Shown here piece by piece: positions 6,888 to 28,768 of a DNA stretch of 47,164 bases. The number at the start of each line of letters is the position of its first letter. Position 1 is the stretch's first letter. Made by a program: the position numbers and the translations under genes. The DNA comes from Candidatus Bipolaricaulota bacterium (lineage in GTDB: Bacteria; Bipolaricaulota; Bipolaricaulia; UBA7950; UBA9294): positions 1 to 47,164 of the forward strand of contig JAGLXM010000283.1 in NCBI GenBank assembly GCA_023132915.1, given 5' to 3'. Under the pieces are notes generated by a model. It saw only the letters and a list, made by a program, of their open reading frames with translations. It searched no databases and was not told the origin of the DNA.

Positions 6888-6912
6888 ATCAGCGCACGAT
6901 GCGCAGGCCACC
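6888..6912. repeat. 25-bp direct repeat, copy 2 (kdgK last codons and stop)
   Basis: Identical to 5998-6022; encodes GGLRIVR-stop on the minus strand. Confidence 0.9.
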
Positions 6913-7878
6913 ACCCTCAAGGAGCCGTTCGGTCTCCTCGCAGGTCGCCCAACAAAGGTCGCCGGGGTTGGTCTGCTTGAGGGCGGAGATGGCAACGCCA
7001 TAGCGCACCGCAGCAGCAGGGCCGTCGTGCAGGTAACCGAAAAGAAACCCACCGGTGAAGGAATCACCGGAGCCAACTCGGTCCACGACCTCGATGTCGA
7101 ACTTCGGCCCGCGGTGGATCTTCCCATTGGCGTATGCGATGGCGGTCCAGGTGTTTCGCCACACCGATGGTGTCTCGCGCAAGGTGATTGCTACCGCTCC
7201 GAGGTGGAATTGCTCAGCCAGAGCCTTGGCAACCTCTTCGTAGTTATCCTTCTTGATCCCGAACACCCGCTCTGTGTCCTCCTCAGTGGTGATGAGGATG
7301 TCGGCTGCATCCACCAACTCTGACATGACCTCACGCGCTTTTTCTTGTGACCATAGCAATGCTCGGTAGTTGAGATCGATCGATACCTTGATGCCTGCCT
7401 TCCTCGCTACACGAACCGCCTCTTTTGTCGCCTCGGCCGCTGTGGAAGAGAGGGCTGGGGTGATCCCGGATGTGTGGAACATCTTTACCCCTTTAAAGAT
7501 CGCATCCCAATCGACTTCTCCAGGACGAATGCGTGCGATCGCTGAATCACGGCGGTCATATACCACGGAGTTGGGACGGGGGCTTGCCCCGAACTCCACA
7601 AAGTAGGTTCCCACCCGATCATCATCGGTCCAGACAATGTAGGAGGTATCCACTCCGTGCTCGCGGGCCTTGTTCGCGATCATCCGGCCCAGAGGATTGT
7701 TGGTGAGGCGAGTGACGTAGGCCACTCCAAGCCCTAGTCGTTGCGCAGCGACGGCCACGTTTAACTCCGAGCCTCCGACGTTTATATCGAGCAGGTTTGT
7801 CTGCTCCAGCCGCCGGAAATTCGGTGGTGAGAGGCGAATCATTGCCTCTCCAAACATCACAAGGTCATGGTGGCGCAT
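6889..7878 (-). CDS. kdgK: 2-keto-3-deoxygluconate kinase (PfkB family)
   Basis: FGEAMIRLSPP, GGSELNVA, DLNYRxxLWS, DRVGSGDSF; coupled to eda by a TGATG overlap. Confidence 0.85.
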   Translation of the reverse strand: MRHHDLVMFGEAMIRLSPPNFRRLEQTNLLDINVGGSELNVAVAAQRLGLGVAYVTRLTNNPLGRMIANKAREHGVDTSYIVWTDDDRVGTYFVEFGASPRPNSVVYDRRDSAIARIRPGEVDWDAIFKGVKMFHTSGITPALSSTAAEATKEAVRVARKAGIKVSIDLNYRALLWSQEKAREVMSELVDAADILITTEEDTERVFGIKKDNYEEVAKALAEQFHLGAVAITLRETPSVWRNTWTAIAYANGKIHRGPKFDIEVVDRVGSGDSFTGGFLFGYLHDGPAAAVRYGVAISALKQTNPGDLCWATCEETERLLEGGGLRIVR

Positions 7879-8528
7879 CAGGAATCCTCCCCTCTTGCCT
7901 TCCGAACAGCTTCTACGAGCAGGCAGGCGCGCTCAGTAAGGACTTCATAGCGACTCTCGGCCACCGCCTTCTCGTCCACCAGCCAGCCGCCAGTACACAC
8001 CATTGCGGCTCCGGCGCGGATGAACTCACCGGCGTTGTCGGCGGTGACGCCACCAGTGGGTACAAGTGGAATCTGGGGGAGCGGCCCTCGTATTGCCTTG
8101 AGATAACTCGGGCCCAGAACGCTTGCCGGAAACACCTTCACCATGTCCGCTCCAGCTTCCCAGGCGGTGAGTATCTCGGTCGGGGTCATCGCGCCAGGGA
8201 TGACAACCACCCCATAGCGATGGGCCATCTCGATCACATCGGGCTCCACCGTTGGGGTGACGAGGAACTCTGCCCCGGCGAGGATTGCTTGCCTGGCTGT
8301 AGTTCCATCCAATACCGTGCCCGCCCCCATGGTTACCCCTTCGAGCTTTCCGCCTGCCTCCTCGATTGCCCGCAGTGCCCCGGGCGTAGTCATCGTGATC
8401 TCGACACATTCGAGGCCACCATTGCGTAGAGCTCGGGCGATTCCGACGAGATCCTCGGCTGCCTGCACCCGGATGACCCCCAACACTCCAGCTTCTCGCA
8501 TTTGTACAAGAATTTTCACTTTGTTCAT
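7878..8528 (-). CDS. eda: KDPG/KHG aldolase
   Basis: GVIR, EITMTTPGA, GAGTV, PGAMTPTE, VKVFPA, PTGGV. SD AAGGAG favours ATG 8528 over 8549. Confidence 0.92.
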   Translation of the reverse strand: MNKVKILVQMREAGVLGVIRVQAAEDLVGIARALRNGGLECVEITMTTPGALRAIEEAGGKLEGVTMGAGTVLDGTTARQAILAGAEFLVTPTVEPDVIEMAHRYGVVVIPGAMTPTEILTAWEAGADMVKVFPASVLGPSYLKAIRGPLPQIPLVPTGGVTADNAGEFIRAGAAMVCTGGWLVDEKAVAESRYEVLTERACLLVEAVRKARGEDS

Positions 8529-8591
8529 GGTTCGCTCCTTATTGTTCATTCCTCAGTTCTTTATTGAATGTACTTTAGAACTAGCATAATC

Positions 8592-9143
8592 TTACCGCCA
8601 TTTATCGTACGTTACTATCTCATTTAACTTCTTACGCTTCTTAGGGAGGCTCGGACTGACAGCCTGAACTGGATATCCAAGTGGAAGCAAAATCACCACT
8701 CTGATCTGATCGGGGATATCAAGAATTTTCTTGACTTCATCCTCTTCAAAATCACCTATCCAGCAACTGCCTAGGCCTTCCTCTACTGCCTTAAGTGTCA
8801 TGTGATCTATAGCTATAGCTAGTTCTATAGGATACGCCACTTGGCCACAGGGCATGATACGACTGGTGTCAGTAGCACAAGCAGCTATGACGACTGGTGC
8901 CTGTCCTACGAATTCTTGGCCATGTGCGGTTTTGGTCAGTTTCTGTCGAGTAGAAGAGTCTCTTACTATCACAAACCGCCACTCCTGACGATTGTACGCT
9001 GAGGGAGCCCACCGAGCCGCCCCTAATACTCGCTTGAGTTTATCCTCTTCAACATCTTTGGTCTGATAATTGCGCACAGCATAGCGCTCTTTGATAGCAT
9101 CTATTACATTCATCGCGTTTAGCTCCTTAAAGTTGCTCTTCAT
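8592..9143 (-). CDS. Nitroreductase family protein
   Basis: RYAVRNY, APSAYNRQEWRF, GLGSCWIG, LPLGYP. True start may be the second Met (MNVIDAI). Confidence 0.88.
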   Translation of the reverse strand: MKSNFKELNAMNVIDAIKERYAVRNYQTKDVEEDKLKRVLGAARWAPSAYNRQEWRFVIVRDSSTRQKLTKTAHGQEFVGQAPVVIAACATDTSRIMPCGQVAYPIELAIAIDHMTLKAVEEGLGSCWIGDFEEDEVKKILDIPDQIRVVILLPLGYPVQAVSPSLPKKRKKLNEIVTYDKWR

Positions 9144-9407: not shown

Positions 9408-10316
9408 CTAAACTACCAGTTCGGTTCCCACTTTATGTGATATCAGCAAATCTCGAACGCGATTCAGATGCTCTCTGGTGGGTGGTTCAAGACCCTGTAG
9501 CCCGTATTCTCTCCCTAACATCTTGTACTTTGAGACTCCTAGTCGATGATACGGTAAAAGATCCACTCTCAAAGCCAAGACCTCTTTAGTTAGTTCAATT
9601 AACTCATTGATATTCTCCTTCGAGTCATTTATTTTTGGTATTATAGCAAGCCGTATTATTATTGGCATCTTTTTCTGCCCCATTCGTCTAACATTCTCCA
9701 ATATCAGCTCGTTACTTGCCCCAGTATACGCTTTGTGCTTGAGTGGGTTCATGTGTTTAATATCATAGAGTGTTATATCAACATACTTTATAATCTTTTC
9801 TAAATCGCTCCACTGCCCATAACCGCTTGTATCCAATACCGTGTGAATCCCTCTCTCCTTGCATGCTTTAAGAATCTCTCTAGTGAACTCTGGTTGAGCG
9901 AGCGGCTCACCCCCTGATATTGTGACGCCGCCATCAGATGATCGATAGAACGGTATGTCCTTCTCGACCGCTTTTAGAACTTCTTCGACTGAGACCCTTT
10001 GTCCGATAACTGTTAGGGCGTTAGAGTAGCATACCTTTGCACACTCGTTGCATTTCACCTTACACAAATCTCTGCTGATCTTAATTCCTTGCCTTTCATC
10101 TTTTTCCATGGCATTTGCTGGGCATGTCTTTATACATTCCTCGCACCCATCGATATGAAGATTCGCATTGTACATTATCTCAGGCGATGAGCGCTGAGAT
10201 TCGGGATTACTGCACCATACACACCTAAGGGGACACCCTTTTAGAAACACGGTAGTCCTTATTCCCGGCCCATCATCTAGCCGAGACCTTTGTATGTCGA
10301 ATATCAATCCTTCCAT
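9408..10316 (-). CDS. Glycyl-radical-enzyme activating enzyme (radical SAM, ferredoxin insert)
   Basis: DGPGIRTTVFLKGCPLRCVWCSNPES (CX3CX2C), Cys-rich insert, GGVTISGGEP, LLPYHRLG; SD AAGGAGG. Confidence 0.93.
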   Translation of the reverse strand: MEGLIFDIQRSRLDDGPGIRTTVFLKGCPLRCVWCSNPESQRSSPEIMYNANLHIDGCEECIKTCPANAMEKDERQGIKISRDLCKVKCNECAKVCYSNALTVIGQRVSVEEVLKAVEKDIPFYRSSDGGVTISGGEPLAQPEFTREILKACKERGIHTVLDTSGYGQWSDLEKIIKYVDITLYDIKHMNPLKHKAYTGASNELILENVRRMGQKKMPIIIRLAIIPKINDSKENINELIELTKEVLALRVDLLPYHRLGVSKYKMLGREYGLQGLEPPTREHLNRVRDLLISHKVGTELVV

Positions 10317-10343: not shown

Positions 10344-12719
10344 TCAAGATGCTTCAAATTCAGTTCTGCTTAAAATTTCATCCTGAAGTTCTTTGCTGAG
10401 TTGGTTCCATGGAGCAACGTAAGCTGCAACTCTCACCATAAGCTCGGGGTACCTCTCCGGATGTTTTTGGGCTTCCTTTAACACTCTAATATCAACAATA
10501 TTAAATTGTATATGGAATCCGCCAAGGCTCAGATATGTCTTGATCAGCTTCGCGAAGTTTCGAAGCCGTTCTTTACCCGTCAGGGTGTGCACATTAAACC
10601 TCATGTTTAACAAAGTTCCATTCGCTACTAGCGCATGATCCTGTTTTACCATCGATTTCAAGACAGCGGTGGGGCCACTCTTCGCTTGCCCTTGTACTGG
10701 CGAATGCGCATCCGATAAGGGTGCCTTCGCCTTACGGCCGTCGGGGGTCGCACCAACGTATTCTCCAAGGGCATCATGAGATGACACAGAAAAGGTTCCC
10801 GGTAGAAATGGCCCCCCTCTCAGGTTCCTATACCAGTGTACCTCATTGCAGTAATGTCCAACGATCTCGCAGGCCAGATGATCCACTTCGTCTATATCAT
10901 TTCCGAACTTTGGTGGCTCGTTCAATAGCCTTTGCCTTAGCATCTCCCGCTCCTTAAAATCGCTGTTCAGAGATTCGAGCAAAGTTTCCATGCTGATAGC
11001 TCTCTCATCGAATATGAGTCTCTTTACGGCTATTAGAGAATCTGCGGCTGTCGCCATCCCTACTCCCTGGATACCTGTGAAGTTATAGAGGGCACCGCCG
11101 TGATTTACCTCCCGTCCGCTCTCTAAGCATCCGTCCACTAAGATGGATTCCAATGGTTCCGGCCACCGCTCTTTATGAGATAGCTCAACAGCATGTAAGG
11201 CTTGTACCAGCAAGCGAACTCCATTTGCAATTTGTTTCTCAAATGCATCCTTCAATTCACTAAACGACCTGAACTCCGTGGCTTTCCCTGTAGCTGGGCC
11301 TATTTTGTTATTAGTCTCCGGATCAATTCCGTTGTTTAGCGCTAATTCGAGACATTTAGCGAGATTTAGCGAGCCAGCGTTGCTCCATCCCCATGTTTTC
11401 CCAGGGATGGAGTTCTCAACGCAGCCTACGAATGCATAATTTCCCTCCGCCTCTTTTGGGGGTATACCCGCATTGATTAATGATTGGATACCGACATGCA
11501 CATTAAAGAATTTTGGCTTGTTAGTCTTTGGCACGAGCTTAGCTGCCTTGAGCAGAAACTCATCGCTCATCTTGTTCGTCCAGAGCACCGCAACGTCTGG
11601 TTGAGGGAGTCTAACCTCCTCCTCTACTTCGAGCATTAACTCCGAAAGCTCATTTGTGGCGTCCTCTCCCTCAGGAGTTAATCCCCCTAACTCGGGGGGA
11701 TCAGTTACAGGGAAACCAGCATACAATCTTGCGCCTTTATTGCTATACAATTTAAGAATTTCACTACACTTTAACCAAAAGCTGACTAATAAATCTTTAG
11801 CTTCATCTTTCGTTAAGTCGTGTTCTTTAACGCCACTTCTGAAATACGGATATAGATATTGATCCATCCTCCCAAGTGTCACACCGTAACCATTTGAATC
11901 TATATGAAGGATAACATGAATGAGCCACAATCCTTGCAGAGCTTCGTAAAAGGTTCGTGCTGGTTTAGCTGGTACCTGATCAAGCACTTCTACTATCTGC
12001 AGTAACTCTTTCCTCCTTTGCAAATCTCTTTCATCCTCGGCTAGACCTTTTGCAAGTTCCCTATACCGTTTAGCATAAGCCTTGACCGCCTCACAGCAAA
12101 TTAAACACGCTTTGTAAAATATGTTTTTGGAAAATTCCTCTGGGTTCTCTAAGCGCAAGGCGCTCATTCTATCTTTTATCGATTGTTCCATTCCGTTAAG
12201 ACCCTGCCTCAATACTCTTTCATAATTTGGTATGAAGTGACCAACTCCACTAATTAACATGTTTTCAAAACAAATTAACCCCGAATCATTAGCTTTTTTA
12301 GAATCCGCGGGCATTATTGAAAGGGCAAGATCTTTCAGCGTTTTCCCCAACCACCATGGAAGTGTCTCCCGCAACTTTCCTTTGACTTCTGCCGGCACTA
12401 TAAACTTATCTCCAGGCCTTGTTTCATATGTGTCCATTTCATTTAAAATATGATCTACGGCACCTTCCGGGTAAACTGGGGCAGATATAGGTTCAGGCCC
12501 TAAATTCCCTACAATAAGCTCATGAGGTTGAATATATATGGTCATCTCACTTAATATCTTCTTTAATGCCTTAGCTCGTCTTAGTATTTGGGGCTCCCCC
12601 TCAGTAGTCTTATAGATTTCCGTAATAAGTTTCGCTCTCTCTGAAGTAAGCTTGGGCTTTATCAGTCTTGCTAAGATCTTCTCTCTTACTTGTTTAATTT
12701 CTTCTTTTCTTAACATCAT
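10344..12719 (-). CDS. Glycyl-radical-enzyme (PFL2/dehydratase-like) homologue with Gly-to-Ala at the radical site; candidate aminoacyl radical enzyme
   Basis: ILRRAKAL, ELIVG, GRMDQYLYPY, GCVE Cys loop, PKFGNDIDEVD, ATPDGRKA, HIQFNIV. Radical loop reads LMVRVAAYVA (GCT codon at 10424-10422). Confidence 0.9.
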   Translation of the reverse strand: MMLRKEEIKQVREKILARLIKPKLTSERAKLITEIYKTTEGEPQILRRAKALKKILSEMTIYIQPHELIVGNLGPEPISAPVYPEGAVDHILNEMDTYETRPGDKFIVPAEVKGKLRETLPWWLGKTLKDLALSIMPADSKKANDSGLICFENMLISGVGHFIPNYERVLRQGLNGMEQSIKDRMSALRLENPEEFSKNIFYKACLICCEAVKAYAKRYRELAKGLAEDERDLQRRKELLQIVEVLDQVPAKPARTFYEALQGLWLIHVILHIDSNGYGVTLGRMDQYLYPYFRSGVKEHDLTKDEAKDLLVSFWLKCSEILKLYSNKGARLYAGFPVTDPPELGGLTPEGEDATNELSELMLEVEEEVRLPQPDVAVLWTNKMSDEFLLKAAKLVPKTNKPKFFNVHVGIQSLINAGIPPKEAEGNYAFVGCVENSIPGKTWGWSNAGSLNLAKCLELALNNGIDPETNNKIGPATGKATEFRSFSELKDAFEKQIANGVRLLVQALHAVELSHKERWPEPLESILVDGCLESGREVNHGGALYNFTGIQGVGMATAADSLIAVKRLIFDERAISMETLLESLNSDFKEREMLRQRLLNEPPKFGNDIDEVDHLACEIVGHYCNEVHWYRNLRGGPFLPGTFSVSSHDALGEYVGATPDGRKAKAPLSDAHSPVQGQAKSGPTAVLKSMVKQDHALVANGTLLNMRFNVHTLTGKERLRNFAKLIKTYLSLGGFHIQFNIVDIRVLKEAQKHPERYPELMVRVAAYVAPWNQLSKELQDEILSRTEFEAS

Positions 12720-13896
12720 TTCTTTGTCTCCCCGCAGCTAATTCCTGAAAGACTTCTCCCATCCTTTTTACGCCTTTCCGGATGTTCTCAGTTGAGTTGG
12801 CAAAACAAACCCGGATATAGCCCTCGCCTTCCGCGCCAAAAGCGCTGCCTGGAGCTACTGCTACTCGAGCCTTTTCGAGAAGCAACCTTGAAAGATCAAA
12901 CGAAGGAATCCCAAACTGACGAATGTCCACGAAAGCATAGAAAGTCCCCCTGGGTTTGAAGACCTTCAATCCAGGGATCTGAGCGAGTTCTGCGATAAGA
13001 ATGTCTCGTCTACGTTCATACTCCTTGACCATCTTCAGCGGAATTTCCACCGGCAACTCCAGGGCAGCCAAGGCGGCCATCTGGGAAACAGAGCTTGTAC
13101 AAGCAGAGGTATGCTCATGGAGTTTGGCAGTCTTATCTGCAAGTTGTTTTGGTGCTGCCAGATAACCCACGCGCCACCCGGTCATCGCATAGGATTTGGA
13201 GAAGGTTCGTAAGATAACGGTCCTTTCTTTCATTCTTTCTAGGGAAGCGATGCTCAGGAACTTCTTCCCATCGAACACAAGGCTCTCATAGGCCTCATCG
13301 GAGAAAACCAGGAGATCATTCGCCCTCGCTACATCCGCGATTACTTCTAAGTCCTCCCGATCCAGAACCGCTCCAGTAGGATTGTGCGGATAGTTAATGA
13401 GAAGCACTTTTGTATTCTCTGTGATCGAGTTTTTTAAGGTCTCTGTCACAAGTTTGAATTCATGCTTCTGCTCAAGCACAAGCTTTTTATATTTTCCGCC
13501 CGCTAAAAGGACGTGGGCCGGGTAGTTCGGCCAGTGTGGCGAGGGTAGCAGAACCTCGTCTCCTTTATTAAGAGTTACTAACATTATGAGGAGAAGAGCT
13601 TCCATTCCTCCGGCTGTAATGACGATTTCGTCCGGATCGAATTGCACTTCAAGCTCTTCGGTAAGTTTAGCCGCGAGCTTTTCCCGAAGACTTTTGATTC
13701 CCGCGCTTGGCGTATAGTGGGTCATCCCTTTCTTCGCCGCCTCAAATGCAGCTTCTACAATGGGTAAAGGAGTATCAAAGTCAGGTTCACCGATCTCAAA
13801 GTGGATTACGTCTTCCATCTTCCCTGCTAAATCAAATATCTCACGAATCCCTGAATAAGGCAGGTTCTTTGCACGCTGAGATATAAAGCTACTCAT
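12694..13896 (-). CDS. PLP-dependent aminotransferase class I/II (aspartate aminotransferase-like)
   Basis: IGEPDF, NYPHNPTG, SDEAY, SKSYAMTGWRVG. Confidence 0.9.
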   Translation of the reverse strand: MSSFISQRAKNLPYSGIREIFDLAGKMEDVIHFEIGEPDFDTPLPIVEAAFEAAKKGMTHYTPSAGIKSLREKLAAKLTEELEVQFDPDEIVITAGGMEALLLIMLVTLNKGDEVLLPSPHWPNYPAHVLLAGGKYKKLVLEQKHEFKLVTETLKNSITENTKVLLINYPHNPTGAVLDREDLEVIADVARANDLLVFSDEAYESLVFDGKKFLSIASLERMKERTVILRTFSKSYAMTGWRVGYLAAPKQLADKTAKLHEHTSACTSSVSQMAALAALELPVEIPLKMVKEYERRRDILIAELAQIPGLKVFKPRGTFYAFVDIRQFGIPSFDLSRLLLEKARVAVAPGSAFGAEGEGYIRVCFANSTENIRKGVKRMGEVFQELAAGRQRNDVKKRRN

Positions 13897-15146
13897 AGTG
13901 CCTCTTCCTCCTTATAAATACACTGGGCTGCCGACATAGCTCGTTCCACGTCTACATCAGCTCCAAGGTCACGCAGAGCCATGCCAAAAGCGAAAATCGC
14001 GTAAAGTACTTTGTGATATCTCGCAGCTTCTCCCATTGTTCCAAATCGGACGTAGTTCCTACCTATCTGGGATTTGTAGACATCCCACGACATCATGTTG
14101 GCATCGCCTAGGATCACCCTATACTGTTCGAATAGTTGCTTACGGATCTGGTAATCCTCGATACCGTTAGACAAAAAAATCGCGGACACCGCGTTGTCGG
14201 CATACCGATCATCCTGACAGATGTAGCCCAACCCCATCGCCTTTACCGCCGATCGCACTGCCTTTCCCGCGATCTCGTGTCGCGCGATGCTCCTTTCCAG
14301 CCCTTCCTCCTTGAGCTGCTTCAGAGAAGCCCACACCCCTTGGATAATCACAAATGACGGGGATGCCGGATGAGGCGCTTCTTCTAGATGAAACTCAAAC
14401 TTGTTACCACCGGCCGCCCAGTTCTTCTGCTCGGTCCGCGCCATGTTTAGATAATCCTTGCAGGCCAGCAGATTCATGTAGAACCCACGAATCCGCTCCC
14501 TTCGCCCTCGGATCCGTTCCCACGCTCGCGGACTGACCGAGACAAACGTGTTCCCTTGCGGTGCCCCGAGACACTTCTGGCCATTTACCACACACAAATC
14601 AATGTTCCAGTCATCCACACGCAGTTCCTCACTGGCAAAAGAGGAAATAGCATCCACCACGTAAAGAAGGTTTCGCTCCCGAGCTAGCTGCCCAATTTCC
14701 TCCAGTGGATTCGCCACGCCAACGCTGGTTTCCCCGTGAACGACACCGATCCCTTTGAGGTTTCTCTCTTTATCGAGGGCCACTGCAATGACTCCAGGAT
14801 CAACAGGCGTTCCTAACTCGAAGGGGACCTTAACTGGGACCGCACCGGCAGCTTGCGTCATCAAACTCATGATTTCACCAAACATGCCATTGTGTGCAAT
14901 GAGAAAGCGGTCGCCTGGCTCGAGAATCGAGTTCAAGGAAGCTTCTATCCCCGAGGTTCCAGTCCCAAAGACAATTATAATTTCATTCTTCGTACCTAAG
15001 AATTCCTGTAGCAAAGCGAGTGCTTCCTCCTCCATTTGCCAGAATGGCGGAGAATAGATAGTAATAACGTCTTTTCCCAAGGTCCTCTTGCACTTTTCTG
15101 TCAACTCTGTCTGACCGCAGCTCATATTGAACGCTTCCTGATTCAT
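13893..15146 (-). CDS. PLP-dependent aminotransferase class V (alanine-glyoxylate/serine-pyruvate type)
   Basis: GTGTSGIEA, VHGETSVG, VDAISS, GQKCLGAPQG, RFGTMG. Confidence 0.88.
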   Translation of the reverse strand: MNQEAFNMSCGQTELTEKCKRTLGKDVITIYSPPFWQMEEEALALLQEFLGTKNEIIIVFGTGTSGIEASLNSILEPGDRFLIAHNGMFGEIMSLMTQAAGAVPVKVPFELGTPVDPGVIAVALDKERNLKGIGVVHGETSVGVANPLEEIGQLARERNLLYVVDAISSFASEELRVDDWNIDLCVVNGQKCLGAPQGNTFVSVSPRAWERIRGRRERIRGFYMNLLACKDYLNMARTEQKNWAAGGNKFEFHLEEAPHPASPSFVIIQGVWASLKQLKEEGLERSIARHEIAGKAVRSAVKAMGLGYICQDDRYADNAVSAIFLSNGIEDYQIRKQLFEQYRVILGDANMMSWDVYKSQIGRNYVRFGTMGEAARYHKVLYAIFAFGMALRDLGADVDVERAMSAAQCIYKEEEAL

Positions 15147-15162
15147 AAAAGACCTCCCTTGG

Positions 15163-15507
15163 ATACCCCCCAGCTTACTGGGGGAAGGAAAGCGGAGATT
15201 CGCCGTAGGCGAATCTGCTTGTTAGTAGGGGCTACATGAGTTCTATCAGAAATGTCCGGTTGCAAGGTTGGGCGGAGACAATCGCTGCCGAGAATCTCGC
15301 GGGGAGAAGTCCCTTTAACGTCGAGGATAACCCCCTCAACGTCGGAGGTAAGCTCCGACGCTACGAAGAGATGGCCGTAGCGGCGCACCTTGTGTGCGAC
15401 GTTACCTTGGGTGTGATAAAGCAGTACATCAAATTGCACCATGAGGACCAACTCCGCTTAGATCTTTAGGTCTTGCTTTTCAATGCCCCGCAGCTTGCTG
15501 CGGGGTT
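15163..15507 (+). mobile_element. Internally deleted IS200/IS605-family remnant with REP-like hairpins
   Basis: Related hairpins at both ends: CCCCCAG-CTTA-CTGGGGG (15167-15184) and CCCCGCAG-CTTG-CTGCGGGG (15486-15505). Residual Y1-TnpA-like tail VTLGVIKQYIKLH...stop at 15401-15469. Confidence 0.7.
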
Positions 15508-15509
15508 CT

Positions 15510-17411
15510 TTACTCCCTGACGAACTTCTCCTTTAGGAAGTTGAGTCCCAAGTCCTGCAGCTTCTTAGCCGTTGGCACACCAGTTTTCGTATTCCAACCT
15601 CGAAGTTTGTAGTACTCCTCAAGCATTTGGCCTAATTTCTCTTGCGTCAGGGTAGCCTCCCCTCTCTTTAAGCTCGGAGACGGCTCGAACATACGTGGGG
15701 GCAACACATCCAGATCGCGACAAGTTCGACCTTCTCGAAGGTTAAAAGCTCGCTCTAAGGTAACGATCTTTTCTCCTCTGTTTCTGATCTCATCAACTGA
15801 CATGGGAATCCCTGTCGCTGTTCCAAACATTGTCGCTAAGTTCTCAAAATTAATCCTGGTATACGACCAGGTGTCCGTAAACACGCAAATACCTAAGCAA
15901 TCAGACACGGAGTAGATATCTTCATGCCACGCCACCAGTTTAGGTTTTCCTTCCGGGGAAAGGGAGTCCACACCTTTCTCACTTCCACTCACTTCGATCG
16001 CAAGTTGACGGACTTCCGGGGTATACGCGAACTCCGCTAAACATTCCGTTGTTAGATGGTCAGGTCCTCTGGGATTCAGCGCAAAAGCCAACGCATAGCT
16101 CATTGATCCTCGAACATCAATCCCGGTCTGCTCCAGGCCATTCGCTTGTACGGCGAAGCTTTCTGCACCATGCCCGATCTTGCCAGCAGCGATGCGGCTA
16201 CCATCGGCCAACAGATCTCCAATGCCTTTTCGGCACGACATCATTTCTAACAGGGAAAGCATAGCGTCGGCATTCCCCCACGATAAATCTAATCCTCCCA
16301 AATCTTGCCCCTTCAGCAATCCCCGCTCATTACATTCCATCGCAAAAGAGACCATACTCCCAGCGGATACGATGTCCATTCCCATCAAATTACAGATCTC
16401 GTTTCCTTTAATGATCGCTGCGGCATCGGTAATATCACATTTGGAACCTAGCGAAACCAAGGTCTCATACTCTGGTCCAGCAGTATAGGCTCCTTTGTAA
16501 GGCCCGGATCGCACACGGGCGAAGCGGCCACAATGAAAGACACAAGAGGAGCAGGCCTCGGGATGTGCAAATTTTTCAGAGACATATTCTCCACTGATTT
16601 TATACACATCGGGAATAAACCCGTCTTGAAAATTCTTATGCGGGAGGGTTCCCCCTTCATTCGATCCTATAACCCCCTGTGCTGTACCAAACTTAAAGGA
16701 GCGGGTCCAGCAGTATTCGTCTTCGCGAAGAGCTCTGCGAGCAGCTAGTGCTGCCTCCATGAACTGATCGGGATCTGCAACGCTTATATCACCCGTACCG
16801 CGCACCGCGATGGCTTTCAGATTCTTCGAACCCATCACAGCTCCGACGCCACCTCGGGCAGCCGTACGGTAGATGGAGGCCATTATACTGGCGAAATTGA
16901 CCAAATTTTCTCCAGCTGGACCAATCATCGCGACTTTGATCTGATCATCCGCTAGCTCTTCCTTGATCAGTTGATCAGTCATCCGCGTATCCATCCCCCA
17001 GAGATGCTGAGCATCGCGAATCTCTACCTTCTCATCGTCGATCCACAGGTATACAGGATGATCTGCTCGCCCCAATACCACAATAAAATCGTACCCTGCA
17101 AACTTCAGTTCAGGAGCAAAATGAGAACCTACGTTGGCCTTCAAATACAGGTGTGTAGCCGGGGACTTACAGGTAATTGTCATTCGCCCTGAACATGGTG
17201 CAAACGTGCCTCCAAGGGTACCGGTCCCGAAAATCAAGGGATTTTCAGGGCTAAGTGGATCCAGCCCTTTATTCGTCAATTCCCAAAGCAACTTCGCGTT
17301 AACACCACGTCCTCCTAGGTATTCATAGAGGAGTGCCTCTTCCACAGGACGCTTTTCCACTTCTTCATGGGTAAGATCGACCCAAAGCATCTGGCCTGCT
17401 ATGCCGAACAT
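15510..17411 (-). CDS. Aldehyde:ferredoxin oxidoreductase (W/Mo-pterin, AOR family)
   Basis: YLGGRG, KSPAT, ELKFAGYD, IGPAGEN, GAVMGSKNLKAI, CSSCVFHC, GPEYET, RGPDH, YYKLRGW. Start ATG 17411 after SD GAGGTG. Confidence 0.93.
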   Translation of the reverse strand: MFGIAGQMLWVDLTHEEVEKRPVEEALLYEYLGGRGVNAKLLWELTNKGLDPLSPENPLIFGTGTLGGTFAPCSGRMTITCKSPATHLYLKANVGSHFAPELKFAGYDFIVVLGRADHPVYLWIDDEKVEIRDAQHLWGMDTRMTDQLIKEELADDQIKVAMIGPAGENLVNFASIMASIYRTAARGGVGAVMGSKNLKAIAVRGTGDISVADPDQFMEAALAARRALREDEYCWTRSFKFGTAQGVIGSNEGGTLPHKNFQDGFIPDVYKISGEYVSEKFAHPEACSSCVFHCGRFARVRSGPYKGAYTAGPEYETLVSLGSKCDITDAAAIIKGNEICNLMGMDIVSAGSMVSFAMECNERGLLKGQDLGGLDLSWGNADAMLSLLEMMSCRKGIGDLLADGSRIAAGKIGHGAESFAVQANGLEQTGIDVRGSMSYALAFALNPRGPDHLTTECLAEFAYTPEVRQLAIEVSGSEKGVDSLSPEGKPKLVAWHEDIYSVSDCLGICVFTDTWSYTRINFENLATMFGTATGIPMSVDEIRNRGEKIVTLERAFNLREGRTCRDLDVLPPRMFEPSPSLKRGEATLTQEKLGQMLEEYYKLRGWNTKTGVPTAKKLQDLGLNFLKEKFVRE

Positions 17412-17415
17412 GTTG

Positions 17416-17928
17416 TCATTCACCTCTTTCTGATTCCATGGACTGCAGCCGACGCTGAGCAACCTTTCTCACTCTTAGCCGAGCTGCCAATTTCTCCGGG
17501 ATCCACTGCAATGCTCCGGCTGTACAGTATTGGGCACAATAAGGCGTCGTTCCTAGGCTGGAACATAGGTCGCACTTCACCAATTTCCCATGAGCATCAA
17601 GGGAGATAGCTCCTATTGGACAGGCATTCACGCACTCACTGCACCCAACGCACTGCGTGGCATCATACTGGACTACTCCCCCCTCATCTTGAGAAAGAGC
17701 GTCGGTAGGGCAAACCGAAACGCAGGGAGCATCTGCGCACTGCTCGCACAGAATTGGAACGAAGTTCCCGCGGTTATCGTCTCTCCAAACCCGTATTCGT
17801 GAGCGCTCGTAGCTGAAGGCCTTCTCATGGACAAAAGAGCATATGAGCATACAGGTGTTGCAGCCTGTGCACTTCTCTGTATCGATGAATAACATCATGC
17901 GCTCGGCATTATCGGTCGAGATCGCCAT
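17416..17928 (-). CDS. 4Fe-4S ferredoxin subunit (DmsB/AOR-associated type)
   Basis: CTGCNTCMLIC, CEQCADAPCVSVCP, CVGCSECVNACP, KCDLC...PYCAQYC; SD AAGGAGGT before 17928. Confidence 0.9.
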   Translation of the reverse strand: MAISTDNAERMMLFIDTEKCTGCNTCMLICSFVHEKAFSYERSRIRVWRDDNRGNFVPILCEQCADAPCVSVCPTDALSQDEGGVVQYDATQCVGCSECVNACPIGAISLDAHGKLVKCDLCSSLGTTPYCAQYCTAGALQWIPEKLAARLRVRKVAQRRLQSMESERGE

Positions 17929-18127
17929 ATTCCAGACCTCCTTTCCCTGCAAATACAGCTTCTCCTCTTCTTGCTTTCAAGTAACTCCAACACCCGCGGC
18001 AGAAGTAGACCCCTTCCTCACCTGTTGGTGAGGAGACGGCGTGCTCCTTGCACAGTGCCAGGCCGCACAAGTGGCACTGAAAGATCGCAGGGTTTGGACA
18101 CCCGGTTACACCACATTTCCCTTTCAT
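17909..18127 (-). CDS. Small Cys/His-rich putative zinc-finger protein (72 aa)
   Basis: CGVTGC, CHLC, CKEH, CRGC; ATGA overlap with the DUF917 stop and SD GGAGG. Confidence 0.65.
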   Translation of the reverse strand: MKGKCGVTGCPNPAIFQCHLCGLALCKEHAVSSPTGEEGVYFCRGCWSYLKARRGEAVFAGKGGLEYGDLDR

Positions 18128-19251
18128 GAGGTACCTCCTATAAGCTTCTCTACTGGCCGGTAGTCAATCCGTTCACCATATCGGTCTGAAGCGAACGCTC
18201 GGGCACCAGCCTCTGTTTCCAGCGCCTCCCGAAGTCGAGGATGGCACGGAACAGCCACTAAGAGAAGTTCGCGTCCCTCTTTGATGTCGGGGGTCATCAC
18301 ACCTTTGTTCGTGTCAGGGTCAAGGAGCAGTATAAGATCGGGGAAGATTACGATGGGACGTCCGTCAAGGCGAGCACACATCACCTCATTTTTGATCGTG
18401 AGATCTACAGTACGCCCTTTAAAACCGCCCGATCCCTTGACACGCACGTGGGCAAAATAGAAACCACCTCGGTTTTCTCCATTAATAACAGTTACCTTTC
18501 CCCATAACAACGGGAATCCTTCAAGGTGTTCGCTGAGACTTGCCAACTTATCTCCAGGTTGCCCAGTCAACGAAGTAACAAAGCCTCCAAGATCAATTGC
18601 TTTCGTGATCGTATTTGGGATCACAGATCGCTTAAGTTCTGCACCACTCATAGGGTAGTGCGAATTGGCCATCAATCCTCGCTTTGTTGATACCACAAAC
18701 CGGCCAACCTCGTCTGGGAAAAAGATGTCGTTACTCTCCTTTACAATTACAACGGTGCCCTTGGAGTCGACAAGTGGCATGGGCGTGAGTTTAACTCCGT
18801 GCCCAATAAAGCTAGTCATCTGTGTCTCCGGTGCGGCACGTCCCAGGGCATCCCCATCAACCACGGGGATTCCCAGCCGAGCTCCAGCAGAGAGGATTAC
18901 CGGTGTGTTTCCACCGCCCATTTCAAAAGGCACAAGATAATCGATGCGTCGGCCAATAAGTGTTTCCATCTCGCGTAAAGCGCATTCTAATTCAAAGCTG
19001 TGTTCCCACTCATCGACGACCCGATCAAGTGCTCTGTCCTCTGCGACCGATCCCAGGTACCCTCCACTCACCACCAAAGCATCCTCTCCCACCTCTTCAG
19101 GATTCACAAGCTGGTACACTCGACCTTTCGCCAAATCCGCATCGATGATGCTTGCCCCCCATGTATCAGGATCACCTCCTCCTCCTGTGCCCAGAATGCC
19201 CAACCCTCTTAGCATCCATTCGAGTTCTTTGCGTTCGCTGAATTTCCGCAT
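18124..19251 (-). CDS. DUF917-family protein
   Basis: GILGTGGGGDP, EMGGGN, VVDGDALGRAAPE, KNE, FPDLI. Confidence 0.88.
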   Translation of the reverse strand: MRKFSERKELEWMLRGLGILGTGGGGDPDTWGASIIDADLAKGRVYQLVNPEEVGEDALVVSGGYLGSVAEDRALDRVVDEWEHSFELECALREMETLIGRRIDYLVPFEMGGGNTPVILSAGARLGIPVVDGDALGRAAPETQMTSFIGHGVKLTPMPLVDSKGTVVIVKESNDIFFPDEVGRFVVSTKRGLMANSHYPMSGAELKRSVIPNTITKAIDLGGFVTSLTGQPGDKLASLSEHLEGFPLLWGKVTVINGENRGGFYFAHVRVKGSGGFKGRTVDLTIKNEVMCARLDGRPIVIFPDLILLLDPDTNKGVMTPDIKEGRELLLVAVPCHPRLREALETEAGARAFASDRYGERIDYRPVEKLIGGTS

Positions 19252-19261
19252 CCAAACCTCC

Positions 19262-19927
19262 TTATCCGATCTTTACCAAATTCAGATCCTCCACACTTTG
19301 CTTGCCCTCATGAAGGAGCTTTGCTGTATATGCCACCCTTTGCCCAACCCTCCTTGCTGCTTCTAGACCTATGGAATCTTTATACACGGCTTCCCGGGTA
19401 TCTTCCTCCATCTGCCATGCTGCCCCACCAATATAGTCCCCTCCAACGCAGACAAACCCACTACTGAGAAACCAATGCAATATATTTGAGAGGGCGTGTT
19501 CCACGCCTCCGTGGCGATGAAAGCCAATTGCCACTGCTCCCGCTGCTGTCTTTGTCCAATCCGGGGGAGGAAAAGGGAACTCCTTGTCCCATAGCTGTGT
19601 GAACAAGCAGGTGCACCGCTCGAAAAACGCTCGTAGAATAGACGGCACATTAAAAAAATAGACGGGCGATCCGATGATTACTCCATCGGGAGGAGGATCG
19701 ATAAGGGCGTTGGTCAATTCCCTCCAGTCGTCCTTTTTCCAACAGTAGCTCTTTTGTTGTACACAGTAGTCACAGTCAATGCAAGGCTCAATCCGCTTTC
19801 CTGCAAAAGAGAGAAACTCGACCTCAACTTCAAACGGAAATTCCTGAGCTGCCTGGAGTGCCTCTTTAACAAGGATCTCTGTGTTCCCGTGCCGAGGACT
19901 TGCCGCAATACCTAATACTCTAACCAC
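19262..19927 (-). CDS. Flavodoxin-like iron-sulfur flavoprotein (FMN reductase family)
   Basis: ASPRHGNT, PCIDCDYC...C, GSPVYF, RHGGVE. Confidence 0.85.
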   Translation of the reverse strand: MVRVLGIAASPRHGNTEILVKEALQAAQEFPFEVEVEFLSFAGKRIEPCIDCDYCVQQKSYCWKKDDWRELTNALIDPPPDGVIIGSPVYFFNVPSILRAFFERCTCLFTQLWDKEFPFPPPDWTKTAAGAVAIGFHRHGGVEHALSNILHWFLSSGFVCVGGDYIGGAAWQMEEDTREAVYKDSIGLEAARRVGQRVAYTAKLLHEGKQSVEDLNLVKIG

Positions 19928-20279: not shown

Positions 20280-21056
20280 CTACCAAAGGCCATCTACTCC
20301 ATATTGCTCCTGCAGCTTCCAACTAAGAATCTGATTATTTGGGGGTCGCTCGTAATCGCCTCTTTTACTATGTCCCCAACCAAAGCGCTTCTTCAATTCA
20401 CATAAAAACTCGGCATACTTGAAAGCTGCTATTATTGGATCGATGACGGGTACCTTTAAGCTTGACTGGAGATCTTGGAAAAAGCCGTATTCCATTGTGC
20501 AACCAGGAATAATCACTTCTGCTAAATCTTCTTCCACAGCTTCCCGAGCAGCCTGGTGCATTCTTCCCATAGTGCGGGCCTTATCCGCCTGCATTTCACT
20601 GACTCTTAAATTAATAGATTTGAAAGAACTTAACCTCAGCTCCATGCCATAATTTCTCACGTTCTCCGCCATTTGAAGAATCCATTTCTCTCGCCCAATA
20701 ATGATAGAGAACTTACTTCCCAAGGTGGCTGCAAGATGCATGGAGGCTTCTGCGGGCGCTACAATTACTATGTCAGCTATTTCTCTTGCCGCTTGTAGCC
20801 CTGGATCATAAAAGCACCCAATAATGGCTGCATCGTACCCCTCTTTTTCCGCCTCTTTGATTTTATGCAAGATATCTGGAATCACCAAGGCTTCATAATA
20901 ACGGTATTCCAAATCGCGGGGCCCTCTACCCGTGGAGACGATCTTAACTTCTGTCCCTTTGCGCTTTCCTTTCTCAAGCAATGCTTCAAACTGCCGATTA
21001 AGGCCATCCAGAGGCAAGCCAGGGTTAATCCATAGAATTCGGTCCTGTACAGTCAT
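20280..21056 (-). CDS. Asp/Glu/hydantoin racemase family protein
   Basis: ILWINP, IIGCFYDPG, IIPGCT, PVIDP; both catalytic Cys present. Confidence 0.88.
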   Translation of the reverse strand: MTVQDRILWINPGLPLDGLNRQFEALLEKGKRKGTEVKIVSTGRGPRDLEYRYYEALVIPDILHKIKEAEKEGYDAAIIGCFYDPGLQAAREIADIVIVAPAEASMHLAATLGSKFSIIIGREKWILQMAENVRNYGMELRLSSFKSINLRVSEMQADKARTMGRMHQAAREAVEEDLAEVIIPGCTMEYGFFQDLQSSLKVPVIDPIIAAFKYAEFLCELKKRFGWGHSKRGDYERPPNNQILSWKLQEQYGVDGLW

Positions 21057-21082
21057 TCTTGCTCCTTAACACTATAGATACG

Positions 21083-22108: not shown

Positions 22109-22165
22109 CCAATTCAACCTCCTCGTTCAATAATAAAGTCAAAATCCTCTCCAGATCATGCTCAC

Positions 22166-23005: not shown

Positions 23006-23247
23006 GTCCCCTCCTCATTATTGTACGCCAGACCCCAAGGCAAATCCTTTGAGCCATACTACTTCTTTAACCAAGGCAACAATTTCTATCCCTTTGCTTT
23101 GCAAGACCCATCACATCCCTTCCACTTCAGAGAGGCCTCAACGCAACTTTAGAGGATGACCTGCACATTTAGGCATCCTTATCTGTGGTGTCGTACTGAC
23201 TGTAGCAGCACGGCCTTCTACATCTCTCTTCCAACAACTACCTTTGC

Positions 23248-24723: not shown

Positions 24724-24780
24724 CCGCACTCCCTCCTTATGTGCAATTGCTGGTTACCCTTCGCCTGGCAACATTCAATG

Positions 24781-25728: not shown

Positions 25729-25739
25729 AGATACCCTCC

Positions 25740-26762: not shown

Positions 26763-26792
26763 CAGTACATCCTCATAGTCGATTCACACTCC

Positions 26793-27482: not shown

Positions 27483-27503
27483 TAACCTCTCACTCCTCCT
27501 CAG

Positions 27504-28646: not shown

Positions 28647-28718
28647 GTCAGCGTCCTCTTCCACACAGCGAGGTCATGGGGTGTTCACCACCGGAATTGT
28701 TACATTTGTCGTTTTTAT

Positions 28719-28768
28719 GGGACCGTACATTGCCGCGGCACGGTTAAACCCCGACAATGTACAGTCCC
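28719..28768. other. Long stem-loop downstream of the substrate-binding protein gene
   Basis: GGGACCGTACATTGCCGCGG / CCCCGACAATGTACAGTCCC; 17 of 20 positions complementary, 10-nt loop. Confidence 0.6.

What the first reader, a model, noticed from the sequence alone, without database searches (positions are those of the whole stretch)
10344..12719. Glycyl-radical enzyme without the glycine: candidate alanyl radical enzyme
Seen: a full-length 791-aa GRE fold with an intact GCVE Cys loop, whose radical loop reads VRVAAYVAPW instead of RVxGYS. The codon at 10424-10422 is GCT (Ala) and the residue after Tyr is Val rather than the usual Ser. An intact activase starts 27 bp downstream and neither gene shows decay. 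Established: the Gly is essential in PFL, CutC, HypD and relatives. As I recall, GRE homologues carrying Ala/Ser/Thr radicals (aminoacyl radical enzymes) have been reported, with substrates unknown to my knowledge. Inference: this is an active alanyl-radical enzyme, and its unusually rich neighbourhood could reveal the reaction. Caveat: GCT is one base from GGT.
Basis: partly seen in the sequence, partly recalled or inferred. Interest (0 to 1): 0.95.

Follow-up and report, generated by a model that had tools for sequence, protein, structure and literature searches.

The report
Alanyl radical enzyme with its activase
This gene really does encode a glycyl-radical-type enzyme whose radical glycine is replaced by alanine, but such alanyl radical enzymes were described in 2024, so it is a new member of a known class whose substrate is still unknown.

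Summary
ORF 10344-12719 (-) is a full-length 791-aa PFL-like enzyme with Cys loop GCVE and radical loop RVAAYVAPW. GCT at 10424-10422 encodes Ala766. An intact radical-SAM activase starts 27 bp downstream.

The Ala is not an error. Contigs from 3 other studies carry the identical codon. 75 of the 117 full-length homologues among the 120 best also read Ala. dN/dS against a 93% relative is 0.19.

The protein falls inside a 75-row all-Ala clade (support 100). That clade includes the Desulfoscipio geothermicus protein (54% identical), the organism whose alanyl radical enzyme (ARE) was shown by EPR (Fu et al. 2024). It is therefore a new member of a published class, not a discovery.

The closest solved structures are B12-independent glycerol and propanediol dehydratases (TM 0.96-0.97). 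The catalytic Cys, Glu and His are kept. Four pocket residues shared by both dehydratases are changed.

Context adds something. The low-GC3 ARE-activase pair sits at the 3' end of a two-aminotransferase operon. Three related genomes have that operon without any ARE, and one of them also has the ABC-transporter, DUF917 and aldehyde:ferredoxin oxidoreductase genes.

I infer a 1,2-eliminase acting on a hydroxylated intermediate of amino-compound breakdown. The substrate remains unknown.

The parts
10344..12719 (-). Alanyl radical enzyme (ARE), 791 aa, PFL-like plus glycine-radical domains
   Evidence: ORF. Pfam PF02901 and PF01228. TIGR01774 at 777 bits against a cut-off of 678. AF2 model with pLDDT 96.3. 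TM 0.96-0.97 to glycerol and propanediol dehydratases.
10422..10424 (-). GCT codon for Ala766, the site that is the radical Gly in canonical enzymes. It sits at the tip of the hairpin formed by strands 761-763 and 768-770.
11415..11423 (-). Cys433-Val434-Glu435 (CxE) of the Cys loop
   Evidence: Cys is invariant in 118 of 118 aligned rows.
12237..12239 (-). His161, aligned with His164 of glycerol dehydratase
   Evidence: The role of His164 is taken from review PMC13450708, section 27.
9408..10316 (-). Radical-SAM activating enzyme, 302 aa. It has CX3CX2C at residues 28-35 and a ferredoxin-like Cys-rich insert.
12694..13896 (-). Class I/II aminotransferase (AT1). Its stop overlaps the ARE start by 26 nt.
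   Evidence: The nearest solved structure is the P. horikoshii aromatic aminotransferase 1dju, at 2.3e-95.
13893..15146 (-). Class V aminotransferase (AT5) of the AGXT/PucG type. It overlaps AT1 by 4 nt.
   Evidence: The nearest solved structure is PucG 3isl, at 9.8e-42.
15147..15509 (-). Structured intergenic copy of a dispersed repeat. The 102-aa ORF called here is probably not a gene.
   Evidence: Fold z-score -4.73. 58 matches across the MAG. No Pfam hit. Atlas recognition 1228, which is low.
15510..17952 (-). Aldehyde:ferredoxin oxidoreductase (15510-17462) and its 4Fe-4S partner (17416-17952)
18124..19927 (-). DUF917 / S-Me-THD-like protein (18124-19251) and FMN reductase (19262-19927)
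20280..24729 (-). Asp/Glu/hydantoin racemase, a NicX/M29-like 344-aa protein, an SDR (22166-23005) and a non-Pyl MttB-family methyltransferase (23248-24729)
   Evidence: The SDR is 64% identical to the SDR next to a 62% ARE in L017.
24781..31513 (-). Two ABC permeases, a corrinoid protein, a URO-D-like methyltransferase, a family-5 solute-binding protein and an IclR regulator
6889..9143 (-). Genes downstream of the activase: nitroreductase (8592-9143, low GC3 like the ARE), KDPG/KHG aldolase (7878-8549) and a PfkB kinase (6889-7878)

Best explanation
The gene encodes a functional alanyl radical enzyme, a member of the ARE clade of the aminoacyl radical enzymes.

How it most likely works (inferred by homology):
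- The adjacent radical-SAM activase cleaves SAM and removes the C-alpha hydrogen of Ala766 at the tip of the C-terminal hairpin. This leaves a stable backbone alanyl radical.
- During turnover the radical passes to Cys433 of the GCVE loop, and the thiyl radical abstracts a hydrogen atom from the substrate.
- Glu435 and His161, the counterparts of Glu435 and His164 of glycerol dehydratase, then assist a 1,2-elimination of a group next to a hydroxyl-bearing carbon. The product is a carbonyl compound.

The enzyme is not a glycerol or propanediol dehydratase, because four pocket residues shared by those two enzymes are replaced.

Inferred from context: the ARE-activase pair is a horizontally acquired add-on to an older island for breaking down an imported amino compound. 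That island comprises an Opp/Dpp-type ABC transporter, DUF917, an FMN reductase, FeS-AOR and two aminotransferases. The ARE probably handles a hydroxylated intermediate whose carbonyl product goes on to the aminotransferases or to the aldehyde:ferredoxin oxidoreductase. The substrate is unknown.
For: Shown here:
- Full GRE fold.
- Ala766 is confirmed in contigs from 3 other studies.
- Ala occurs in 75 of 117 full-length homologues among the 120 best, down to 41% identity.
- The query sits in an all-Ala clade of 75 rows with support 100, which includes P0023, the D. geothermicus protein at 54% identity.
- dN/dS against L016 is 0.185 for the ARE, 0.204 for the activase, 0.155 for AT1 and 0.090 for AT5.
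- The activase has CX3CX2C and passes the TIGR02494 cut-off.
- Cys433, Glu435 and His161 are kept.

From print:
- The D. geothermicus ARE forms an alanyl radical with its own activase. AAREs resemble GRE eliminases most closely (PMC11528403, sections 4 part 1, 8 and 9).
- The roles of Glu435 and His164 in glycerol dehydratase come from PMC13450708, section 27.

Context:
- AT5, AT1 and the ARE overlap one another, and the activase follows after 27 bp.
- Three same-family genomes have AT5 (67-69%) - AT1 (61-63%) - IclR and no ARE.
- One of them (G128) also has SBP5 - ATPase - FMN reductase - DUF917 - FeS - AOR next to it.
- GC3 is 0.43-0.44 for the ARE, activase and nitroreductase, against 0.60-0.73 for flanking housekeeping genes.
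Against: - No radical, activity or expression was measured for this protein. No RNA run holding the sequence was listed.
- The eliminase assignment rests on three conserved residues and on overall similarity.
- Four positions where the two diol dehydratases share His, Ser, His and Asp read Tyr278, Gly279, Ser446 and Asn447 here. The chemistry could therefore differ.
- The context link is weak in other organisms. The 63% homologue in G184 has different neighbours, no activase within 668 bp, and no MttB in its genome.
- The 62% homologue in L017 is frameshifted and sits among gene fragments.
- The synteny with L016 reflects close kinship, not independent conservation.
- The related genomes run the island without any ARE, so the ARE may be functionally unrelated to it.
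Confidence: 0.75

Rival explanations
1. The Ala is a sequencing or assembly error, or a very recent inactivating G-to-C mutation, in an ordinary glycyl radical enzyme.
For: GCT is one base away from GGT.
Against: - The codon is identical in contigs from 3 other studies.
- All 13 closest homologues, at 57-93% identity, read RVAAY.
- 75 of 117 full-length homologues read Ala.
- Val768 and Trp443 co-vary with the Ala.
- dN/dS is 0.185.
- The same assembly calls RVAGY in its other GRE.
Confidence: 0.01
2. It is a genuine ARE, but its chemistry is not a 1,2-elimination. It could, for example, be an isomerase of the PflD/YbiW kind or a decarboxylase.
For: - PflD and YbiW structures are also close matches: 4.6e-164 and 8.6e-143, and TM 0.93-0.97.
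- The NCBIfam model with the second-best score is the PflD-type PRK09983, though far below its cut-off (630 against 1109).
- Four residues shared by the diol dehydratases are changed.
- 27 of 76 Ala rows lack the CxE glutamate, so the clade is chemically diverse.
Against: - This protein keeps Glu435 and His161.
- Its best sequence and fold matches are glycerol and propanediol dehydratases.
- Decarboxylases are much more distant: 2y8n at 7.9e-62 and TM 0.91/0.83.
Confidence: 0.17
3. It is an alanyl-radical version of a glycerol or 1,2-propanediol dehydratase, and the aldehyde:ferredoxin oxidoreductase oxidises the aldehyde it makes.
For: - The closest solved structures are 1r8w (41% identity, TM 0.96) and 5i2g (38%, TM 0.97).
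- An AOR is encoded 2.8 kb upstream.
Against: - His281, Ser282, His446 and Asp447 (glycerol dehydratase numbering) are shared by both diol dehydratases in the alignments. Here they read Tyr, Gly, Ser and Asn.
- The Gly-bearing homologues that carry the H-S ... H-D signature form a separate group.
- No microcompartment genes or other diol-utilisation genes are present in the window.
Confidence: 0.05
4. It is a non-catalytic or decaying GRE homologue that happens to be retained next to its activase.
For: The 62% homologue in L017 is frameshifted and lies among gene fragments. The G184 homologue has no adjacent activase.
Against: - This copy and its activase are intact.
- Both are under purifying selection.
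- Near-identical sequence occurs in runs of 8 studies.
Confidence: 0.02

Closest known systems
Alanyl radical enzymes (AREs) of the aminoacyl radical enzyme class, exemplified by the ARE of Desulfoscipio geothermicus DSM 3669 (Fu et al., JACS 2024, PMC11528403)
   Same: - GRE fold, RVAAY loop, conserved Cys and an adjacent radical-SAM activase.
- Both sit in the same all-Ala clade (support 100).
- P0023, named by NCBI as a D. geothermicus glycyl radical protein, is 54% identical.
   Different: - They belong to different subclades. The pocket signature differs at Tyr278/Leu, Gly279/Ala, Ser446/His and Met706/Val, and the loop ends APW rather than ALF.
- At 54% identity the two need not share a substrate.
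- I could not see Table S1 of the paper (supplements are closed). I therefore cannot say whether this protein, or its 93% relative, is among the 17 AREs listed there. I also assume, but have not confirmed, that P0023 is the enzyme the authors studied.
B12-independent glycerol dehydratase (C. butyricum, 1r8w) and 1,2-propanediol dehydratase (R. inulinivorans, 5i2g)
   Same: - Best sequence and fold matches: 8e-193, and TM 0.96-0.97 at 41% and 38% identity.
- Cys433, Glu435 and the His164 equivalent are kept.
   Different: - The radical residue is Ala, not Gly.
- His281, Ser282, His446 and Asp447 are replaced by Tyr, Gly, Ser and Asn.
- No diol-utilisation genes lie nearby.
Taurine to isethionate to acetaldehyde route (aminotransferase, reductase, then the GRE IslA). 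Recalled from general knowledge as an analogy of pathway logic only.
   Same: An aminotransferase, a short-chain reductase and a GRE-type eliminase are encoded together, and the GRE yields an aldehyde.
   Different: - IslA is a distant match (7kq3 at 2.4e-104, 28% identity).
- I could not test for sulfonate-binding residues.
- The aminotransferases here belong to other classes.

Membership tests
Aminoacyl radical enzymes, ARE clade | GRE fold (PFL-like barrel plus C-terminal radical domain) | tested here: met
   Pfam PF02901 at 2.3e-205 and PF01228 at 4.2e-25. AF2 model with pLDDT 96.3. TM 0.96-0.97 to solved GREs.
Aminoacyl radical enzymes, ARE clade | Ala in place of Gly in the RVxG[FWY] fingerprint | tested here: met
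   RVAAY with GCT at 10424-10422. The codon is identical in contigs from 3 other studies.
Aminoacyl radical enzymes, ARE clade | Conserved catalytic Cys in the Cys loop | tested here: met
   GCVE at 11426-11415. Cys is present in 118 of 118 aligned rows.
Aminoacyl radical enzymes, ARE clade | Adjacent radical-SAM activating enzyme with CX3CX2C | tested here: met
   ORF 9408-10316 lies 27 bp downstream and carries CPLRCVWC. TIGR02494 scores 352 bits against a cut-off of 174.
Aminoacyl radical enzymes, ARE clade | Falls within the monophyletic Ala clade that holds the characterised enzyme's organism | tested here: met
   FastTree of 176 rows gives an all-Ala clade of 75 rows with support 100, which holds both the query and P0023. 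The radical-loop column was not removed from the alignment.
Aminoacyl radical enzymes, ARE clade | Stable C-alpha alanyl radical after activation (EPR) | not testable with these tools
   This needs anaerobic biochemistry.
GRE 1,2-eliminases (glycerol and propanediol dehydratase type) | CxE motif and the His164-equivalent acid/base | tested here: met
   Cys433, Glu435 and His161 are present. Their roles come from PMC13450708, section 27.
GRE 1,2-eliminases (glycerol and propanediol dehydratase type) | Pocket residues shared by both diol dehydratases (His281, Ser282, His446, Asp447 in glycerol dehydratase numbering) | tested here: not met
   The alignments show H-S and H-D in both 1r8w and 5i2a. 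The query has Tyr278-Gly279 and Ser446-Asn447. That these residues bind the substrate is recalled, not checked in print; search found no source.
Glycyl radical enzymes in the strict sense | Catalytic Gly in the fingerprint | tested here: not met
   The residue is Ala766.
Named GRE equivalogs of NCBIfam (HypD, CutC, HpfG/HpsG, PflD-type, indoleacetate and 4-HPA decarboxylases, PFL) | Score at or above the curated cut-off | tested here: not met
   All fall below their cut-offs. Examples: HypD 590 against 1100, CutC 534 against 1050, PRK09983 630 against 1109. Only the subfamily model TIGR01774 passes.

The most novel reading that the evidence does not exclude
This locus may be the first ARE context that points to a class of substrate. 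The ARE-activase cassette has been grafted, with overlapping reading frames, onto a two-aminotransferase operon. That operon belongs to a conserved island with an Opp-type transporter, DUF917 and an aldehyde:ferredoxin oxidoreductase.

A short-chain dehydrogenase and an MttB-family methyltransferase recur, whole or as fragments, beside a 62% ARE in an unrelated high-GC organism.

The boldest reading not excluded is this. The ARE is a new radical 1,2-eliminase acting on a vicinally substituted alcohol or 2-hydroxy acid. That substrate would be made by transamination and then reduction of an imported, possibly N-methylated, amino compound. The reaction would release a carbonyl product for the AOR or the aminotransferases.
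Probability: 0.2. Interest if true: 0.65.

Novelty: new member of a known kind. Interest (0 to 1): 0.35.

Why it matters
Aminoacyl radical enzymes were reported only in 2024, and a June 2026 review states that none has an assigned function.

This member adds three things:
- A well-supported environmental example. Near-identical sequence occurs in sequencing runs of 8 studies; the listed runs are labelled cold seep, hydrothermal vent, subsurface, sediment and marine metagenomes.
- Evidence that the Ala clade is much larger and more varied than the 17 sequences first listed. 75 of the 117 nearest full-length 90%-identity clusters carry Ala, and 27 of 76 Ala rows (the query included) lack the CxE glutamate.
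- A tightly coupled operon that gives a small set of candidate substrates to try.

It does not change what is known about the radical chemistry itself.

Tried and rejected
Searches for more ARE loci with context
- Most attempts failed.
- The genome-contig scan returned 1 locus.
- The metagenome scan used generic GRE patterns. It returned 80 loci, of which only L016 (93%) and L017 (62%) carry Ala in the query's subclade.
- No ARE was found in 183 other genomes of the window's phylum. Ten of them matched at E <= 1e-150, and all ten read RVAGY.
- In 34 genomes of G184's class, only G184 matched at E <= 1e-200.
- In a sample of 401 genomes of G184's phylum, only G184 and two others matched at E <= 1e-200, the two others at 42-43% identity. 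I did not read the radical loops of those two (L107, L108).
- I could not reach the D. geothermicus locus.

Structure
- The first AF2 job used the 14-row alignment and gave pLDDT 54.1. It was discarded.

Unknown neighbours
- The 102-aa ORF at 15143-15451 has no Pfam hit and a low Atlas recognition score. I now read it as part of a repeat, not a gene.
- The 344-aa ORF has no Pfam or NCBIfam hit. The Atlas suggests a NicX/M29-like protein at 0.98. This is a lead only.

Literature
- 'alanyl radical' together with 'glycyl radical enzyme' found only the 2024 paper.
- 'glycyl radical enzyme' with 'aminotransferase' and 'aldehyde ferredoxin oxidoreductase' found nothing relevant.
- 'thiohydantoin desulfurase' gave 0 papers. 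'DUF917' gave nothing useful.
- 'glycerol dehydratase' with Asp447 and His164 turned up no source for the pocket residues beyond the review.

Expression and regulation
- No RNA run holding the sequence was listed.
- Promoter and terminator scans were at chance level.
- Rfam found nothing near the operon.

Other points
- MttB is not needed by all close AREs. G184, which has a 63% ARE, shows no MttB match at 1e-20.
- Considered and dropped as unsupported guesses: specific substrates (glycerate, sulfolactate, 4-hydroxy-2-oxoglutarate precursors, 2-hydroxyethylphosphonate, norcarnitine).
- I did not use complex prediction, because an enzyme with its activase is a textbook pair.
Full report
OBSERVATION

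The window holds an uninterrupted 791-aa ORF at 10344..12719 on the minus strand, and a 302-aa ORF at 9408..10316 that begins 27 bp after it. The reverse-strand read of 10500-10300 shows gtg aga gtt gca gct tac gtt gct cca tgg. This translates to VRVAAYVAPW, with GCT at 10424-10422. Positions 11426-11415 translate to GCVE.

Pfam finds PFL-like (2.3e-205, residues 6-650) and the glycine-radical domain (4.2e-25, residues 669-770). The downstream ORF is a radical-SAM protein with ferredoxin-type cluster motifs. It passes the curated cut-off of the GRE-activase subfamily model TIGR02494 (352 bits against 174). It carries CPLRCVWC at residues 28-35.

IS THE ALANINE REAL?

Near-identical sequence is held by 20 listed runs from 8 studies. 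Their labels include cold seep, hydrothermal vent, subsurface, sediment and marine metagenomes.

I laid the contigs of four runs from four studies on the gene. None of the four was marked as a possible source of the window.
- X3, X10 and X11 each have contigs across 10422-10424 with no differing letters.
- X12 has a contig across the codon with 46 differences. The 38 listed differences lie at 10926-11078 and the other 8 were not shown. X12 therefore neither confirms nor contradicts the codon.

Among the 120 best hits in the 5.8-billion-protein collection, all 13 closest (57-93% identity) read RVAAY.

I aligned the 117 full-length hits with the query. Three hits shorter than 700 aa were left out: P0025, P0046 and P0117.
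- 75 carry Ala and 42 carry Gly.
- Ala rows reach down to 41% identity, and Gly rows reach no higher than 46%.
- Trp443 separates the two groups in the same way.

Against a 93%-identical relative from another metagenome (L016), dN/dS is 0.185 for the enzyme, 0.204 for the activase and 0.155 and 0.090 for the two upstream aminotransferases.

The same assembly encodes an ordinary GRE with RVAGYSDYF, split over contigs C279 and C89. The Ala is therefore not a systematic artefact.

WHAT IT IS

The class is in print. Fu et al. (JACS 2024, PMC11528403; I read the outline, section 4 part 1, and sections 8 and 9) report GRE homologues with Ala, Ser or Thr in place of the radical Gly.
- They list 17 AREs.
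- They state that these enzymes form stable C-alpha radicals on the cognate residue when activated by their partner activases. The D. geothermicus ARE is among the enzymes whose EPR spectra they show.
- They find each type monophyletic and closest to GRE eliminases.
- They state that functions are unknown.

A review of June 2026 (PMC13450708, passages found by term search, and section 27) still says no AARE function has been elucidated. My two literature searches for later functional work found nothing further.

P0023 is named by NCBI as a D. geothermicus glycyl radical protein. It is 54% identical to the query and reads RVAAYVALF.

I built a FastTree of 176 rows: the query plus hits of 700-900 aa with a recognisable loop, ids up to P0185. 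The loop column was left in the alignment.
- The query and P0023 lie in one all-Ala clade of 75 rows with support 100.
- Three more Ala rows (P0048, P0049 and P0057) are adjacent to that clade on the unrooted tree.
- One Ala row (P0136) is sister to three Thr rows.

The query's own subclade is P0001-P0007. Its sister group is P0008-P0013 plus P0031. The protein is therefore a new member of the published ARE clade, in a different subclade from the characterised enzyme's organism.

FOLD AND CATALYTIC RESIDUES

With a 124-row alignment, AlphaFold2 gives pLDDT 96.3 and pTM 0.94. Ala766 lies between strands 761-763 and 768-770, and Cys433 between strands 429-431 and 435-437.

Foldseek ranks the C. 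butyricum B12-independent glycerol dehydratase first (1r8w, TM 0.96, 41% identity). The R. inulinivorans propanediol dehydratase comes next (TM 0.97, 38%). After these come PflD, the N-methyl-hydroxyproline dehydratases, CutC, HypD, HplG, IseG/IslA and HpsG. The decarboxylases and succinate synthases are furthest. The sequence search of the PDB gives much the same order.

The review assigns roles in glycerol dehydratase to Cys433, to Glu435 (which deprotonates the C1 hydroxyl) and to His164 (which protonates the leaving hydroxyl). In the alignment these correspond to Cys433, Glu435 and His161 of the query. All three are present.

Four positions tell a different story. Both diol dehydratases share His-Ser (281-282) and His-Asp (446-447) in the alignments. 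The query reads Tyr278-Gly279 and Ser446-Asn447. That these residues contact the substrate is my recollection, and I could not confirm it in print.

No NCBIfam equivalog reaches its cut-off. Only the broad subfamily TIGR01774 passes.

The reading is therefore eliminase-like machinery with a different pocket.

NEIGHBOURHOOD

All genes from 31513 down to 6889 lie on the minus strand. In order of transcription they are:
- an IclR regulator
- a family-5 solute-binding protein
- a URO-D-like methyltransferase
- a corrinoid protein
- two ABC permeases
- an MttB-family methyltransferase with no in-frame stop
- an SDR
- a 344-aa protein (NicX/M29-like by the Atlas)
- an Asp/Glu/hydantoin racemase
- an FMN reductase
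- a DUF917 / S-Me-THD-like protein
- a 4Fe-4S protein
- an aldehyde:ferredoxin oxidoreductase (AOR)
- a 363-nt gap
- a class V aminotransferase (AT5), nearest to PucG and the alanine/serine-glyoxylate group
- a class I aminotransferase (AT1), nearest to the P. horikoshii aromatic aminotransferase
- the ARE and its activase
- a nitroreductase
- a KDPG/KHG aldolase
- a PfkB kinase

AT5, AT1 and the ARE overlap by 4 and 26 nt.

The 363-nt gap is not a gene.
- Its ORF has no family match.
- It folds with a z-score of -4.73.
- It is one copy of a repeat with 58 matches across the MAG.

The repeat also ties this contig to the rest of the genome. AT5-AT1-ARE-activase is therefore the tightest unit.

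THE ARE LOOKS LIKE AN ADD-ON

AT5 has 67-69% identical counterparts in three genomes of the same family (G146, G144 and G128).
- In all three, AT5 is followed by AT1 (61-63%) and then by an IclR gene, with no GRE.
- In G128 the divergent neighbour operon is SBP5 - ABC ATPase - FMN reductase - DUF917 - FeS - AOR.
- None of these genomes has an ARE. At E <= 1e-150, G146 has only a 38% RVAGY enzyme, and G128 and G144 have nothing. Their completeness is about 89-90%.

GC3 points the same way.
- It is 0.43 for the ARE and 0.44 for both the activase and the nitroreductase.
- It is 0.44-0.47 for the SDR, the racemase and MttB.
- It is 0.60-0.73 for the flanking housekeeping-type genes.

I infer that the ARE-activase pair was acquired horizontally and grafted onto an existing catabolic island. 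The nitroreductase, SDR and MttB may have come with it.

There is some support for a travelling gene set. L017 comes from an organism with 62% GC. It carries, in order:
- a KDPG-aldolase fragment
- an MttB fragment
- an intact SDR (64% identical to the window's)
- an ARE (62%, frameshifted)
- an activase (46%)
- a DUF917 fragment

Against a fixed gene set, consider the 63% ARE of G184.
- It sits after a D-2-hydroxyacid dehydrogenase, an SDR, a LarA-like racemase, a GntR regulator, a Zn-dependent alcohol dehydrogenase and an IlvD fragment.
- It has no activase within 668 bp.
- The G184 genome shows no MttB match.

The synteny with L016 reflects close kinship and carries little weight.

MECHANISM AND CONFIDENCE

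Membership in the ARE clade is shown. Formation of an alanyl radical on Ala766 by the neighbouring activase, and relay to Cys433, are inferred from the characterised relative and from conservation. I consider them likely.

A 1,2-elimination assisted by Glu435 and His161 is the best-supported chemistry, at about even odds. An isomerase-type or other reaction is not excluded.

The context suggests that the substrate is a hydroxylated intermediate of the breakdown of an imported amino compound. The aminotransferases and the SDR would act before the ARE, or the aminotransferases and the AOR after it. I rate this at about one in five. I could not name a substrate.

VERDICT

The finding is a new member of a known kind.

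Its value lies in three things:
- the operon context
- the evidence that the Ala clade is much larger than first listed
- the clade's chemical heterogeneity, since 27 of 76 Ala rows lack the CxE glutamate and 32 lack the His

Supplementary tables of Fu et al. were closed. I cannot say whether this sequence is already among their 17 AREs.

Noticed in passing
window 15147-15509: A 363-nt intergenic element between the AOR and AT5. It folds far better than shuffles (z -4.73) and is one copy of a dispersed repeat with 58 full or partial matches on many contigs of the MAG. L016 has the same element at the same place, 91% identical. No Rfam family matched. It explains the spurious 102-aa ORF.
   Followed up: partly
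window 37607-37686 (+): A c-di-GMP-I riboswitch aptamer (Rfam RF01051, 50.5 bits against a gathering score of 35). It lies on the plus strand between the minus-strand NfeD and UDP-GlcNAc 2-epimerase genes, with no obvious plus-strand gene after it.
   Followed up: no
window 23248-28664: A non-pyrrolysine MttB-family methyltransferase, a corrinoid protein and a URO-D-like methyltransferase are interleaved with the genes of an Opp/Dpp-type ABC transporter that has no ATPase gene in the window. This suggests uptake and demethylation of an unidentified methylated amine. The nearest solved structures are 2qne and a glycine betaine methyltransferase (9yce, 5.5e-71).
   Followed up: partly
protein P0136 (representative library): An 808-aa homologue with RVAAYSAYF is sister to three Thr-bearing rows (parent support 99) and lies outside the main Ala clade. 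This fits an Ala intermediate on the way from Gly to Thr, or a second origin of Ala.
   Followed up: partly
G184 (L101, L103, L106): One genome (Firmicutes bacterium UBA3567) encodes three Ala-loop enzymes with different Cys loops: GCVE, GCVT and GCVA. It has about ten GRE-type genes in all, three of them in tandem on contig C22.
   Followed up: partly
L033, L061, L092 (metagenome loci): GRE homologues with Thr at the radical position (RVSTYSAYF, RVATYSAFF, RVATYSAYF) turned up among the 80 metagenome loci.
   Followed up: no
L017 1-5987: A high-GC contig with a decayed version of the island: fragments of KDPG aldolase, MttB and DUF917 around an intact SDR, a frameshifted 62% ARE and an intact activase.
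   Followed up: partly
G000 contigs C279 and C89 (L003, L004): The MAG also has a canonical GRE (RVAGYSDYF) with its own activase. The gene is split across two contig ends, and the C279 copy runs into an unrelated reading frame and a transposase-like ORF at its end.
   Followed up: no
L058 3194-5556 and 10001-12343: One canonical Gly enzyme (39% identical to the query) among the 80 metagenome loci also has an FeS-AOR pair (43% and 38% identical to the window's) about 4.4 kb upstream.
   Followed up: no
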